44,349 bases of DNA, from positions 363-44,711 of the forward strand of contig CAZMEF010000001.1 in the NCBI GenBank assembly GCA_964565305.1. Direction: 5' to 3'. The position numbers and the translations under genes were made by a program. Within the stretch, counting starts at the first letter, position 1. Each line of letters begins with the position of its first letter. Shown here one piece after another: positions 10,910-14,618 of this stretch. The notes beneath the pieces are model-generated. The model did no database searches, had not been told where the DNA came from, and worked only from the letters and a program-made list of their open reading frames with translations. The stretch is from an uncultured Eubacteriales bacterium (GTDB lineage Bacteria; Bacillota; Sulfobacillia; Fermentithermobacillales; Fermentithermobacillaceae).

Positions 10910-12625
10910 ATGAGACCAGACGCGCCGGCAGTCGTCCAAAGCGACGGCACCATACTTTTGGAAGTCGGCAATCCCGACTACGAAAGCGCCCGGGATAGCC
11001 TAATGCGTTTCTCCGATCTTGTGAAAAGCCCCGAGTACATCCACACCTACAGGCTGTCTTCTTTGTCGCTGTGGAACGCCGCGTCTTGCGGAATGACGCC
11101 TCCGGAAGTCATACGATTGTTATCGGGGGTTTCGCGCTACGATCTCCCGCAAACCATTGAAGCGCTGATACGCGACACCATGGGAAAGTACGGCATCCTT
11201 TCTCTCCATCAAGAAGGGGAGGACCTGGTCCTCCGGTCCCGCGATCCGTTCGTGATGGAAGAAGTGAGGAGGTCCGACAAGACGGCGCCGCTCATCGAGC
11301 AAATCCGCGCCGACGGTTCGTTCATCGTGCGGCCCGAAGCCAGGGGGTCCATGAAGCAGGCCCTCATCAAGATGGGATATCCTTGCGAGGACCTGGCAGG
11401 TTACAAAGCGGGCGATCCGCTGGCCGTGTCATTCTCCAAAAAGAAAGAGGGGAACGGCGCGTGGTCTCTGAGACCGTACCAGAAAGCGGCATGTGACGCC
11501 TTTTGGGCCGGGGGCTCCGTCCGCGGCGGCAGCGGAGTCGTAGTGTTGCCCTGCGGGGCGGGAAAGACGATCGTAGGCATGGGCGTGATGGAAAAAGTCG
11601 GCATGCAGACCCTCATCCTGACGACCAACGTCGTGGCCTTGAGGCAATGGATCTCCGAACTGCTCGAAAAGACAGATCTTTCGCCCGACCAGGTGAAAGA
11701 GTATAGCGGCGAATGCAAAGAAATAGGTCCCGTGACGGTGTCGACGTACCAGATTCTGACGTACCGGAAAAAGGGCCGGGAACCGGAATACCCCCATTTC
11801 GAGCTTTTCGACAGGCGAAACTGGGGACTCATCATCTACGATGAAGTGCACCTTTTGCCGGCACCCGTGTTCAGAATAACGGCGGACCTACAAGCCCGCA
11901 GAAGGTTGGGCCTCACAGCGACTTTAGTTCGCGAAGACGGACGTGAGGATGAGGTCTTCAGCCTGATCGGACCCAAGAAATTCGACAAACCGTGGAAAGA
12001 GCTGGAGGAACAAAACTGGATAGCCCAGGCAAGCTGCCACGAAATACGGGTGGACCTCTCGCCTGAAGACAGATTGGAATACGCCGTGGCAGAAGAGCGG
12101 GACAAGTACCGCATAGCGGCCACAAACGAGCGGAAACTGCCTATCATAAAGAACATCTTAGACCATCACAAAGACGATCAAGTTCTGGTCATCGGCCAGT
12201 ACCTGTCCCAGTTGGAACTCATCGCCAAAGCGCTGGGAACTCCTCTTCTTTGCGGCCAAACTCCCAACTCCGAGAGAGAAGAGCTGTATTCGGGCTTCAG
12301 GGAAGGTCGGATCAAGACGCTTGTGGTTTCCAAGGTCGCCAATTTCTCCGTGGATCTGCCCGATGCCAACGTGGCCGTCCAAGTTTCGGGCACCTTTGGG
12401 TCTCGTCAGGAAGAAGCGCAGCGTCTTGGAAGGATTTTGCGGCCCAAGCCCCAAGGCGACGGAGCGACTTTCTACTCTCTTGTGACAAGGAACACCAAAG
12501 ATCAGGATTTCTCCCAAAAAAGACAACTGTTCCTCACCGAGCAGGGTTACCGATACACCATATGGGAAGGGCAAAATTACTTGAACGCGTTGTCCGAAGG
12601 AGGCGTCGCCGGTGAACCTGTATGA
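10910..12625 (+). CDS. XPB/Ssl2 (ERCC3/Rad25)-type SF2 DNA helicase/translocase
   Basis: 571 aa. XPB-type N-terminal domain of about 150 aa, Walker A LPCGAGKT, motif II YDEVHLLP, the XPB-specific RED motif in GLTATLVREDGRE, and motif VI QEEAQRLGRILR. Confidence 0.85.
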   Translation: MRPDAPAVVQSDGTILLEVGNPDYESARDSLMRFSDLVKSPEYIHTYRLSSLSLWNAASCGMTPPEVIRLLSGVSRYDLPQTIEALIRDTMGKYGILSLHQEGEDLVLRSRDPFVMEEVRRSDKTAPLIEQIRADGSFIVRPEARGSMKQALIKMGYPCEDLAGYKAGDPLAVSFSKKKEGNGAWSLRPYQKAACDAFWAGGSVRGGSGVVVLPCGAGKTIVGMGVMEKVGMQTLILTTNVVALRQWISELLEKTDLSPDQVKEYSGECKEIGPVTVSTYQILTYRKKGREPEYPHFELFDRRNWGLIIYDEVHLLPAPVFRITADLQARRRLGLTATLVREDGREDEVFSLIGPKKFDKPWKELEEQNWIAQASCHEIRVDLSPEDRLEYAVAEERDKYRIAATNERKLPIIKNILDHHKDDQVLVIGQYLSQLELIAKALGTPLLCGQTPNSEREELYSGFREGRIKTLVVSKVANFSVDLPDANVAVQVSGTFGSRQEEAQRLGRILRPKPQGDGATFYSLVTRNTKDQDFSQKRQLFLTEQGYRYTIWEGQNYLNALSEGGVAGEPV

Positions 12626-14177
12626 GGCATTTTCCTCCACTTCGGCCGAACGCCTGAAGAGCATAGCCGCCTTCTACGGTTTGCAAACGACTTGCGATCT
12701 CGCCGCTAAGGTAGCCTCGCATCTGGTCGTTCCCGCAAACGTCTTGGTGGCCATGAACGGGCTCAACAGCGAAGAGATCTTGGCGCTCCGCCTCATCACC
12801 ATCGCTGCCGGGGGACAAGGAGTAGTAGTGGAACAATGCCACCAGAAGCTGAACCAACTTTCTAGAAAATGGCGCAGGAACGGTGCAAAGGTTATCGAGG
12901 CGCTCATTTCTAGAGGGCTGGTGTTCACACGCCGGGAGGGGTACAGGCACATCTACTTTGTGGCCTCCGACCTTCGGGGTTTCTTGGCCGATTACTTCCT
13001 GTCCGAGATCTATAGATCCGCCGTCGTGGACAGCGCCCGGTTCGCGCCGAGGCGACGACATGACGGAGCGATGCCGCTACGCCATATGTGCCTTTTCCTG
13101 TCGTACCTTCGCAAGAACGAGGTCAAGCTCACTCAATCGGGCAACATGTTCAAGAAATCTCAGACGGAGATATCCGCCTTGATCGAGGAAGAGGCGGCGC
13201 CGCTTGACGAAGCGCTGTTCCCCGTGAGGTATCCCCCTAGGCTCGCGTTCCTTCTCTACTTCGGGAAATCCAAAAGCCTCGTTGAAGAGCGAGGGGGAGC
13301 ACTGGTCCTCGGTCAGAAAGCCTATCCTTGGATAGAGGCCCCCTATGAATCTTGGCGCCAGGACCTTTTCGACTACTGGCGGCAAACCTTCATCGCCCAG
13401 GACAGTGATCTCCAGACCCTCCTTTGGATTGTGATGATGGCCCCGAAGGACAATATCCTTTCGTTGGAATCGCTGCTGGCCGAGATGGACACCTTGTCCA
13501 CCAGCCACTCGTCCCATGGGCTGAACCTTCGGGTAGAACGCAGTCTCGTTGATTTCCTGGAGTATCTGGGCGGACTCGAAGTGGCCTCCTCGATAAACGG
13601 CCTTTTCATAAGGCCGACCGATATGGGAAGGGTTATGTTCAATCCGGGGGCCTCCTGGCCGGATGAAACCTTTGACGAAAGCGTCTACGTCCAGGCCAAT
13701 TTTGAGGTGCTCGTGCCGTGCTCTGTGGGACCGCGCGTCATTTGGGCGATCGACGCGTTCGCGGAACTGCTCAAGTCAGATCAGATGATGGTCTTTAAGC
13801 TTACACGAAATTCTGTCTACAGGGCCTTGGTGTTATCCTACACCCCCGAAACCATAAAGGCGTTCCTTGAGTCCCACTGTAAGAGCCCCGTGCCCCAAAA
13901 CGTCTCCTATTCCATATCCCATTGGGGGACATCCTACGGACGGTTGGAGTTCGAAGAGGCTATCCTTCTGAAATGCGACACGGCGGAATTGGCGGACGAG
14001 CTTCTGCTCTCTCCCAGGATCCGGCCTCACTTGCAGGGAAAAGTCGGACCCCGGCACCTCGTCGTGAATAGGACGTCATACGACCAATTGATCGCGGCTC
14101 TGGCCGATGAGGGATACATGCCGAAAGTTGATGGCAGCTCGCGTGTCCGTCGAGAGATCGCCGGACAACCCGACTAG
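12612..14177 (+). CDS. XPB-associated protein whose C-terminal domain resembles p52/Tfb2 and the XPB N-terminal domain
   Basis: 521 aa. The GTG start lies 14 nt inside the XPB 3' end, with GGAGG about 9 nt upstream. The C-terminal 150 aa (VQANFEVLV...FKLTRNSVYRAL..SYTPETIKAFLESH....VPQNVSYSISHW) aligns by eye with the XPB N-terminal domain and with the eukaryotic p52/Tfb2 pattern. No NTPase or nuclease motifs were seen. Confidence 0.6.
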   Translation: MNLYEAFSSTSAERLKSIAAFYGLQTTCDLAAKVASHLVVPANVLVAMNGLNSEEILALRLITIAAGGQGVVVEQCHQKLNQLSRKWRRNGAKVIEALISRGLVFTRREGYRHIYFVASDLRGFLADYFLSEIYRSAVVDSARFAPRRRHDGAMPLRHMCLFLSYLRKNEVKLTQSGNMFKKSQTEISALIEEEAAPLDEALFPVRYPPRLAFLLYFGKSKSLVEERGGALVLGQKAYPWIEAPYESWRQDLFDYWRQTFIAQDSDLQTLLWIVMMAPKDNILSLESLLAEMDTLSTSHSSHGLNLRVERSLVDFLEYLGGLEVASSINGLFIRPTDMGRVMFNPGASWPDETFDESVYVQANFEVLVPCSVGPRVIWAIDAFAELLKSDQMMVFKLTRNSVYRALVLSYTPETIKAFLESHCKSPVPQNVSYSISHWGTSYGRLEFEEAILLKCDTAELADELLLSPRIRPHLQGKVGPRHLVVNRTSYDQLIAALADEGYMPKVDGSSRVRREIAGQPD

Positions 14178-14186
14178 GGGCGCATA

Positions 14187-14618
14187 CTACAGGTCCCTGA
14201 CGGGACGGGCAAGCGGAAGGTAACGCCCCGCCTTGTTTGCGGCTTTGTCGTACCTGTTGAGCCAGAAGAACGATAAACCCAATCCGGCCAGTCCCGCGAC
14301 GGTCCCCCACAATGTGGGATTGCCAATCCCTCGCCCCAGAAGCCATCCGGCGCCGAAAGCCAAGAACGCGATTATGACAGGCATGAGGTAGACCAGGAAC
14401 GAAATTCGCAGGTAATCTTCGTTATCCATCTCGAGTTCAACAGTTTCCCCCGGTGAAACGTCCCCGAGAGGGACGGCTTCCACTATCAGATCATCGTTGT
14501 CCCCGAAAGCGATATGGGCATGAGAGCATTTTTGACAGTTGTCGCATGCCGCCGTCCGCTTCACGGAAACGGTGATCCTGCCATCGCCGACCGAGACCAC
14601 CCGACCCAATTCCCTCAC
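14187..14618 (-). CDS. RseC/MucC-family (SoxR-reducing system) membrane protein
   Basis: 143 aa. N-terminal beta domain with the Cys motif CDNCQKCSHAH, followed by two TM helices (ISFLVYLMPVIIAFLAF, WGTVAGLAGLGLSFFWL). GTG start with GGAGG 8 nt upstream, 16 nt after the rodA stop. Confidence 0.7.
   Translation of the reverse strand: MRELGRVVSVGDGRITVSVKRTAACDNCQKCSHAHIAFGDNDDLIVEAVPLGDVSPGETVELEMDNEDYLRISFLVYLMPVIIAFLAFGAGWLLGRGIGNPTLWGTVAGLAGLGLSFFWLNRYDKAANKAGRYLPLARPVRDL

What the first reader, a model, noticed from the sequence alone, without database searches (positions are those of the whole stretch)
13680..14129. The partner's C-terminal domain is a paralogue of the XPB N-terminal domain encoded 2.3 kb upstream
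XPB residues about 5-160 (nt 10922-11389) and partner residues about 357-506 align by eye, segment by segment:
- VVQSDGTILLEV with YVQANFEVLVPC.
- FSDLVKSPEYIHTYRLSSLSLWNAASCGMTPPEVIRLLSGVSRYDLPQTIEALIRDTMGKYGILSL with FAELLKSDQMMVFKLTRNSVYRALVLSYTPETIKAFLESHCKSPVPQNVSYSISHWGTSYGRLEF.
- LVLRSRDPFVMEEV...FIVRPEARGSMKQALIKMGYP with ILLKCDTAELADEL...LVVNRTSYDQLIAALADEGYMP.

In eukaryotic TFIIH, the XPB N-terminal domain and the p52 'clutch' domain share a fold and form a pseudo-symmetric heterodimer. Finding the same paralogous relationship between two adjacent bacterial genes suggests the heterodimeric clamp architecture predates eukaryotes. It also suggests these two proteins dimerise through these domains.
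Basis: seen in the sequence. Interest (0 to 1): 0.6.

Follow-up and report, generated by a model that had tools for sequence, protein, structure and literature searches.

The report
Bacterial XPB helicase with p52-like partner
The gene after this bacterium's XPB DNA-repair helicase ends in an ancient copy of XPB's own N-terminal domain and is predicted to fold like p52, the protein that docks onto and activates XPB in eukaryotic TFIIH, a partner that papers on bacterial XPB say bacteria lack.

Summary
XPB residues 6-157 and partner residues 357-502 are homologous. The shuffle Z-score is 7.4, BLASTP gives E 4e-5, and profile-profile hhalign gives 99.6% probability with E 2.8e-24. Both stretches pass Pfam PF13625 above its cut-off.

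AlphaFold2 models of both are confident. In the PDB they match only two things: the XPB N-terminal domain and p52/Tfb2.

The partner goes beyond the finding. Over its full length it is collinear with p52 (Foldseek E 3e-15; the top 23 hits are all p52/Tfb2). It has about three winged-helix units, then a clutch-like domain, then a small beta-beta-alpha tail.

The two genes overlap by 14 nt, and a GGAGG ribosome-binding site precedes the partner's start. In 33 of 41 related genomes the domain occurs exactly twice; the other 8 have none. A tree separates XPB N-terminal domains (human included) from partner C-terminal domains on one branch (support 98), so the duplication is ancient.

Heterodimerisation and ATPase activation are inferred, not shown. 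No p8, p34 or Tfb2_C signal was found. The N-terminal likeness to p52 rests on predicted structure only.

The shared domain is already visible in Pfam. I found no paper describing a bacterial p52.

The parts
10910..12625 (+). XPB/Ssl2-type SF2 DNA helicase-translocase gene, 571 aa
   Evidence: NCBIfam NF045503 (DNA repair helicase XPB) scores 842.9 bits against a 610 cut-off. Pfam finds PF13625, ResIII and ERCC3_RAD25_C. phmmer against the PDB hits human and yeast XPB at E 1e-80.
10925..11380 (+). XPB N-terminal domain (residues 6-157), the paralogue of the partner's C-terminal domain
   Evidence: PF13625 matches residues 8-128, E 6.8e-32. The hhalign range is 6-157. The AF2 model of residues 1-170 has pLDDT 94.7. 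Foldseek hits the human/yeast XPB N-terminal domain at E 5e-14, TM 0.8, rmsd 2.6-3.3 A, then p52/Tfb2 at E 4e-7 to 5e-5.
12597..12625 (+). Translational-coupling junction: GAAGGAGG ribosome-binding site (12597-12604), partner GTG start at 12612, XPB stop TGA at 12623-12625 (14-nt overlap)
   Evidence: Read directly from the sequence. The partner N-terminus (M1, L3, L7) is conserved in homologues.
12612..14177 (+). Partner gene, 521 aa, p52/Tfb2-like; NCBI names relatives 'helicase-associated domain-containing protein'
   Evidence: The AF2 model has pLDDT 88.5, pTM 0.79. The top 23 Foldseek PDB hits are all p52/Tfb2 chains, E 3e-15 to 2e-5, about 520 aligned columns.
12612..13640 (+). Partner N-terminal region (residues 1-343): a helical start plus about three winged-helix-like units (about 53-116, 154-233, 245-335). 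It includes the most conserved motif, EQCHQKLNQLSRKWRRNGAKV (residues 74-94).
   Evidence: Secondary structure comes from the AF2 model and conservation. Foldseek hits the p52 N-terminal-half crystal structure 6tru_D at E 2.9e-3 over 355 columns. There is no p52 signal by sequence alone.
13680..14117 (+). Partner C-terminal clutch-like domain (residues 357-502), the paralogue of the XPB N-terminal domain
   Evidence: PF13625 matches residues 358-473, E 1.3e-22. Pfam Tfb2 matches residues 358-423 to profile positions 291-356 at E 0.011, below the cut-off. hhalign is. The partner profile hits the human XPB N-terminal domain (E 6e-5) and human p52 (E 1.4e-3) in the PDB.

Best explanation
The 521-aa protein encoded immediately after XPB, and overlapping it, is a bacterial counterpart of the TFIIH subunit p52/Tfb2. 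Its last ~150 residues are an ancient paralogue of the XPB N-terminal domain.

Shown here: the homology, the shared predicted fold, the full-length predicted p52-like architecture, the gene coupling, and strict co-occurrence with XPB.

Inferred by analogy with TFIIH:
- The partner's clutch-like domain pairs with XPB's N-terminal domain, beta-sheet to beta-sheet, as a pseudo-symmetric heterodimer.
- This tethers the partner's winged-helix array next to the XPB motor.
- The partner switches on or tunes XPB's DNA-dependent ATPase/translocase.

The conserved position beside the divergently transcribed pcrA points to a chromosomal DNA-repair or DNA-opening role, carried out by a minimal two-subunit machine. 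No p8, p34 or other TFIIH subunit was detected.
For: Homology of the two domains:
- Z = 7.4, BLASTP E 4e-5, hhalign 99.6% / E 2.8e-24.
- PF13625 is above its cut-off in both proteins.

Fold:
- All 37 Foldseek hits of the XPB N-terminal model with E <= 1e-3 are XPB or p52.
- All 38 hits of the partner model with E <= 1e-3 are p52/Tfb2 (23, E down to 3e-15, about 520 columns) or XPB (15).
- The p52 N-terminal half alone (6tru_D) also hits the partner model, at E 2.9e-3.

Specific link to p52:
- The partner profile reaches p52 in the PDB at E 1.4e-3. The XPB N-terminal profile does not reach it.
- 39 of 39 family members hit Pfam Tfb2 at E <= 1; the best is 1.8e-7.
- The Thr/Ser equivalent to human XPB T119 is kept: partner T398, XPB S49 (alignment). 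Greber 2019 notes this residue is conserved in the p52 clutch as well.

Partnership:
- 14-nt overlap with a GGAGG ribosome-binding site.
- 33 of 41 relatives have exactly two PF13625 hits about 2.8 kb apart, and 8 have none.
- In the phylum sample, 24 of 301 genomes have the domain, and 19 of those have exactly two copies.
- In all three checked genomes where the partner has no XPB next to it (one partner sits at a contig end), XPB is encoded elsewhere.
- XPB lies directly upstream of the partner in 39 of 43 loci.
- The XPB N-terminal and partner C-terminal subtrees mirror each other.

Functional precedent: C. thermophilum p52 alone is sufficient to enable XPB's ATPase (PMC7708078).
Against: - No physical or predicted complex was obtained, because the tools fold single chains only.
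- The family-level sequence tests for p52 fail. Pfam Tfb2 scores 15.1 bits against a 34.5 cut-off, and TIGR00625 scores 15 against 320.7.
- Partner profiles for residues 1-357 and 236-395 do not find p52 by sequence. The N-terminal likeness therefore rests on a predicted structure.
- Global TM-scores are low (0.25-0.4, rmsd about 20 A), as expected for flexible multi-domain chains.
- 6tru_D's E-value (2.9e-3) is close to the first non-TFIIH hit (5.6e-3).
- No Tfb5/p8, Tfb2_C or Tfb4/p34 signal was found in the genome, which is 89% complete.
- A few genomes in the phylum sample show only one PF13625 hit.
Confidence: 0.75

Rival explanations
1. The shared domain is an independent functional module, for example a DNA- or damage-binding domain, that each protein uses on its own. 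The partner works in the same pathway as XPB but does not heterodimerise with it through these domains.
For: No interaction was tested here. The most conserved part of the partner is not the clutch-like domain but a basic winged-helix motif, residues 74-94. This would fit a DNA-binding protein with its own activity. In a few genomes the partner and XPB are not adjacent.
Against: In the PDB this fold occurs only in the XPB N-terminal domain and p52, at E <= 1e-3, and there the two copies pair with each other (PMC6422496). Presence is all-or-none across genomes, the genes overlap, and their trees mirror each other.
Confidence: 0.15
2. The partner's C-terminus is a recent, lineage-specific duplication or gene conversion of the neighbouring XPB 5' end. 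It would then have no deep relationship to p52.
For: The two copies lie only 2.3 kb apart in one operon.
Against: Identity between the copies is only about 20%. In a 46-row tree, every XPB N-terminal domain (human included) is separated from every partner C-terminal domain by one long branch (SH-aLRT 98, length 1.32), and the subtrees mirror each other. The pair occurs in distant lineages, including Chloroflexota. The partner family has 453 representative clusters at E <= 1e-30.
Confidence: 0.01
3. The XPB-partner pair is an accessory, mobile or anti-phage defence module rather than a housekeeping repair machine. The p52-like protein would be its sensor or adaptor.
For: The pair is patchy in the phylum, present in 24 of 301 genomes. 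XPB's helicase core gives partial hits to the PADLOC PbeA models. One genome carries two pairs.
Against: The partner has no PADLOC hit. Across the family the pair sits in a fixed core-gene neighbourhood: pcrA divergent upstream, rseC-rodA-minE downstream, in most of 43 loci. There are no mobile-element genes next to it. GC content is close to that of the neighbouring sequence.
Confidence: 0.07

Closest known systems
Eukaryotic TFIIH XPB-p52 'clutch' (human ERCC3/GTF2H4, yeast Ssl2/Tfb2; PDB 6NMI, 8EBU, 7ZS9, 6TRS)
   Same: - The helicase carries an N-terminal domain that is duplicated in a non-enzymatic partner.
- The partner is predicted collinear with p52: a winged-helix array, a clutch-like domain, and a small C-terminal subdomain.
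- The Thr/Ser at the human T119-equivalent position is conserved.
   Different: - It is a two-gene bacterial operon, with no detectable p8/Tfb5, Tfb2_C or p34/Tfb4 signal.
- It scores below the Pfam and TIGRFAM p52 cut-offs.
- The N-terminal similarity is structural only.
- There is no TFIIH core to anchor to, so the role of the winged-helix array must differ.
- The interaction has not been demonstrated.
Archaeal XPB-Bax1 helicase-nuclease complex
   Same: A prokaryotic XPB encoded next to a dedicated partner that modulates its ATPase (review PMC13024598).
   Different: Bax1 is a nuclease that binds XPB's thumb motif and HD2 domain (review PMC13024598). A. fulgidus XPB has a short DRD in place of the N-terminal domain (PMC3353954). 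Here the partner shows no nuclease domain: its only Pfam hits at E <= 1 are PF13625 and Tfb2.
Mycobacterium tuberculosis XPB (Rv0861c), studied as a stand-alone helicase
   Same: The same bacterial XPB architecture: N-terminal domain plus two RecA-like domains (PMC3353954; NF045503).
   Different: [quoted passage not shown] Here a p52-like partner is encoded in the same operon.

Membership tests
PF13625 (Helicase_C_3; XPB N-terminal-type domain) | HMM score above the Pfam gathering cut-off (34.2 bits) in both proteins | tested here: met
   XPB residues 8-128 score 110.5 bits and partner residues 358-473 score 80.6 bits. All 39 partner homologues match.
PF13625 (Helicase_C_3; XPB N-terminal-type domain) | Same three-dimensional fold as the solved XPB N-terminal domain | tested here: met
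   The AF2 XPB N-terminal model matches human XPB at TM 0.8, rmsd 2.6-3.3 A, E 5e-14. The partner model hits XPB N-terminal chains at E 3e-5. These are predicted models, not experimental structures.
XPB helicase (NCBIfam NF045503) | Equivalog HMM score above the cut-off (610 bits) | tested here: met
   842.9 bits over residues 6-551.
p52/Tfb2 (Pfam PF03849, TIGR00625) | Family HMM score above the curated cut-off | tested here: not met
   PF03849 scores 15.1 bits against 34.5, and TIGR00625 scores 15 against 320.7. The match covers only the clutch part, profile positions 291-356. The best family member reaches E 1.8e-7.
p52/Tfb2 (Pfam PF03849, TIGR00625) | Clutch (MD2) domain homologous to the XPB N-terminal domain | tested here: met
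   hhalign gives 99.6%. The partner profile hits human p52 at E 1.4e-3, profile 303-460 to p52 244-408.
p52/Tfb2 (Pfam PF03849, TIGR00625) | N-terminal winged-helix array (NTD and MD1) collinear with p52 | tested here: inconclusive
   Structure supports it: full-length Foldseek alignments of about 520 columns at E 3e-15, and the N-terminal-half structure 6tru_D at E 2.9e-3. Sequence does not: profiles of residues 1-357 and 236-395 find no p52.
p52/Tfb2 (Pfam PF03849, TIGR00625) | C-terminal p8-binding domain (Tfb2_C, PF18307) and a p8/Tfb5 partner | tested here: not met
   Neither PF18307 nor PF06331 matches at E <= 1 in the genome, which is 89% complete. A beta-beta-alpha tail (residues 474-500) is predicted, but its equivalence to the p52 CTD was not resolved.
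p52/Tfb2 (Pfam PF03849, TIGR00625) | Binds the XPB N-terminal domain and stimulates XPB's ATPase | not testable with these tools
   Only indirect evidence: gene overlap, co-occurrence and mirrored trees.
TFIIH core complex | Presence of the other core subunits (p34/Tfb4, p8/Tfb5) | tested here: not met
   PF03850 and PF06331 are absent from the genome. p44, p62 and XPD were not searched.
Anti-phage defence systems (PADLOC-DB) | Match of the partner to any defence-protein model | tested here: not met
   The partner has no PADLOC hit at E <= 0.01. XPB gives only partial helicase-core hits to PbeA.

The most novel reading that the evidence does not exclude
The XPB arm of TFIIH, meaning the helicase plus the p52 scaffold joined by a pseudo-symmetric pair of paralogous domains, already existed as a two-gene bacterial operon, and the eukaryotic module descends from it.

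The three archaeal control genomes named in the control lists (Sulfolobus, Methanosarcina, Haloferax) gave no PF13625 hit. Archaeal XPB uses Bax1 instead. The eukaryotic XPB-p52 pair could therefore be of bacterial rather than archaeal ancestry.
Probability: 0.35. Interest if true: 0.85.

Novelty: new variant of a known kind. Interest (0 to 1): 0.6.

Why it matters
Bacterial XPB has been studied as a lone helicase of unclear function. The 2012 M. tuberculosis paper says no p52 homologue is known in bacteria, and a 2026 review still calls XPB's role in archaea and bacteria 'more elusive'.

If XPB comes with a p52-like activator, three things follow:
- In-vitro work on XPB alone has probably missed its regulated activity.
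- The minimal two-protein module offers a simple bacterial model for the XPB-p52 clutch. That clutch carries human disease mutations, among them F99S and T119P.
- The origin of the TFIIH translocase arm becomes a testable phylogenetic question.

One caveat: the shared domain is already recorded in Pfam, and other windows of this scan have reached the same reading. This locus is therefore one more clean instance, not a unique discovery.

Tried and rejected
- Sequence-only tests of p52 likeness outside the clutch gave nothing. HMM profiles of partner residues 1-357 (A3) and 236-395 (A5) found only weak generic winged-helix hits in the PDB (Crp, STN1, MarR/ArsR; E >= 0.1) and no p52.
- The XPB N-terminal profile does not reach p52 by sequence.
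It gave organism names and synteny but no broad taxonomy.
- I could not obtain a p52 clutch sequence through the tools, so the four-family tree (bacterial XPB N-terminal domain, partner C-terminal domain, eukaryotic XPB N-terminal domain, p52 clutch) was not built. Only human XPB was added.
- Co-evolution (DCA) analysis was not attempted. About 45 paired sequences, mostly from one family, are too few.
- Nine literature searches found no paper describing a bacterial p52/Tfb2 homologue.
- Chance similarity and a recent local duplication were considered and rejected.

Full report
**What is there**

Two same-strand genes fill 10910-14177.
- The first (10910-12625, 571 aa) is an unambiguous XPB helicase. 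NCBIfam NF045503 scores 842.9 bits against a 610 cut-off. Pfam finds PF13625, ResIII and ERCC3_RAD25_C. phmmer hits human and yeast XPB in the PDB at about E 1e-80.
- The second (12612-14177, 521 aa) starts at a GTG that lies 14 nt before the XPB stop codon. A GAAGGAGG ribosome-binding site sits 7 nt upstream of that GTG.
- The partner's only Pfam matches at E <= 1 are PF13625 (residues 358-473, E 1.3e-22) and a sub-threshold Tfb2 hit (residues 358-423 to profile positions 291-356, E 0.011).

**Is the similarity real?**

Yes, by every test tried.
- Smith-Waterman scoring gives 65, against 29.3 +/- 4.8 for 2000 shuffles (Z = 7.4; no shuffle reached it). XPB's N-terminal domain against the partner's first 350 residues scores at the shuffle mean.
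- BLASTP gives E 4e-5. Cross-hits between XPB N-terminal domains and partner C-terminal domains of other genomes reach 1e-9.
- I extracted both genes from 21 other genomes. hhalign of the two domain alignments gives 99.6% probability, E 2.8e-24, 146 columns, XPB 6-157 = partner 357-502.

**Fold**

- The AF2 model of XPB residues 1-170 has pLDDT 94.7. The model of the whole partner has pLDDT 88.5 and pTM 0.79.
- The two domains show nearly the same order of strands and helices; XPB has one extra strand after the third helix.
- Foldseek of the XPB N-terminal model against the PDB returns human and yeast XPB N-terminal domains first (E 5e-14, TM about 0.8, rmsd 2.6-3.3 A), then p52/Tfb2 chains (E 4e-7 to 5e-5). 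All 37 hits at E <= 1e-3 are XPB or p52.
- Foldseek of the partner model returns 23 p52/Tfb2 chains first (E 3e-15 to 2e-5, about 520 aligned columns), then XPB chains through their N-terminal domain (E about 3e-5). The crystal structure of the p52 N-terminal half alone (6tru_D) hits at E 2.9e-3.
- The partner is therefore predicted to be collinear with p52 as a whole. It has a helical start, about three winged-helix-like units (about 53-116, 154-233, 245-335), the clutch-like domain, and a beta-beta-alpha tail.
- This matches the published p52 layout of NTD, MD1, MD2 (the clutch) and CTD (PMC7708078; PMC6422496).

**Limits of the p52 assignment**

- Global TM-scores are low (0.25-0.4). Some of this is expected for a flexible multi-domain chain, but it means the full-length match is not a rigid superposition.
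- The hit to the N-terminal half alone is only marginally better than the first unrelated hit (E 5.6e-3).
- Profiles of partner residues 1-357 and 236-395 do not find p52 by sequence.
- The curated p52 models are not passed.
- What is specific at sequence level is this. The partner profile reaches both the human XPB N-terminal domain (E 6e-5) and human p52 (E 1.4e-3), whereas the XPB N-terminal profile reaches only XPB. All 39 family members give a Tfb2 hit at E <= 1, the best at 1.8e-7.
- The residue equivalent to human XPB T119 is Thr in the partner (T398) and Ser in this XPB. T119 is mutated in trichothiodystrophy, and Greber et al. note its conservation in the p52 clutch.

**Partnership**

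- Among 41 related genomes, 33 carry PF13625 and 8 carry none. Of the 33, 31 carry exactly two copies. The other two are one genome with three and one 74%-complete genome with one. The two copies are almost always about 2.8 kb apart on one strand.
- In a 301-genome sample of the phylum, only 24 genomes have the domain. Nineteen of these have exactly two copies, one has three and four have one.
- I checked three genomes whose partner has no XPB next to it; in one of them the partner sits at a contig end. All three encode XPB elsewhere, and one carries two full pairs.
- In 43 loci from named assemblies (mostly Candidatus Fermentithermobacillaceae and other Bacillota MAGs), 39 have XPB directly upstream of the partner.
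- The neighbourhood is fixed across that family: pcrA divergent upstream, and rseC-rodA-minE convergent downstream.
- The partner family is large: 453 representative clusters at E <= 1e-30 and 2689 at E <= 1e-10. It reaches Chloroflexota, and planctomycete-labelled MAGs by source names.
- A maximum-likelihood tree of 23 XPB N-terminal domains (human included) and 23 partner C-terminal domains splits the two sets on one long branch (SH-aLRT 98). The internal topologies largely mirror each other.
- So the duplication is ancient, older than the split between human and bacterial XPB N-terminal domains, and the two genes have co-diverged.

**Mechanism**

Shown: homology, a shared predicted fold, gene coupling and co-occurrence.

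Inferred from TFIIH:
- The partner's clutch-like domain and XPB's N-terminal domain form a pseudo-symmetric, sheet-to-sheet heterodimer.
- The partner thereby regulates XPB's ATPase/translocase. Fungal p52 alone is sufficient to enable XPB's ATPase.

Other points:
- The most conserved part of the partner is a basic motif in the first winged helix (EQCHQKLNQLSRKWRRNGAKV, residues 74-94; W87, R88, R89 and N90 are invariant in 39 sequences). I take this as a likely DNA contact or second XPB contact; that is speculative.
- The module is minimal. No Tfb5/p8, Tfb2_C or Tfb4/p34 signal was found in the genome.
- The partner has no PADLOC match.

**Novelty**

- The shared domain is already implicit in Pfam, and NCBI names the partner family 'helicase-associated domain-containing protein'.
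- The open literature I could search contains no description of a bacterial p52.
- Balasingham et al. [quoted passage not shown]
- Notes from other windows of this scan report the same reading in at least 46 genomes. These are unchecked AI notes, not independent evidence, but they show that the module recurs.
- I therefore rate this a new variant of a known kind, with moderate to high interest.

Noticed in passing
L003:398-7250 (Anaerolineae MAG, GCA_049975525.1): The operon reads XPB - SfsA - 654-aa unannotated protein - 749-aa partner. The 654-aa protein gives a weak PF13625 hit (E 1.7e-4). The long partner gives two PF13625 stretches, and a fifth hit lies on another contig. In Chloroflexota the XPB-N-terminal-type domain has therefore multiplied.
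   Followed up: partly
L059/L001 genome (G337; GCA_040756655.1): This Bacillota MAG carries two XPB-partner sets. One pair is adjacent (contig C40). The other has the two genes about 10 kb apart on contig C2, with the partner next to tldD/pmbA rather than XPB.
   Followed up: partly
L023 / L061 (Bacillota MAG, SLSY01000238.1): Gene order is reversed here. The partner comes first and XPB lies about 3 kb downstream on the same strand, with pcrA still divergent upstream.
   Followed up: no
window 12831-12893 (partner residues 74-94): The most conserved stretch of the partner is not the clutch-like domain. It is a basic motif in the first winged-helix unit, EQCHQKLNQLSRKWRRNGAKV, with C76, H77, W87, R88, R89 and N90 invariant in 39 homologues. 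Its role is unknown.
   Followed up: no
window 14187-14618 (-) and L001:6744-7175: An RseC/MucC-family gene lies convergent immediately downstream of the partner in nearly all relatives. This holds even in a distant locus where XPB is not adjacent; there it sits with HMA and CsoR-like metal genes. The linkage is probably only syntenic.
   Followed up: no
window 10910-12625: XPB's C-terminal RecA-like domain gives partial hits to the PADLOC PbeA helicase models (best E 5.5e-24, residues 390-544). This looks like generic SF2 similarity rather than membership of that system.
   Followed up: no
control genomes of the genome search: Of the 14 named control genomes, only Corynebacterium glutamicum has PF13625. 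The three archaeal controls named in other control lists (Sulfolobus, Methanosarcina, Haloferax) gave no hit. This bears on whether the XPB N-terminal domain and p52 clutch lineage is bacterial or archaeal.
   Followed up: no
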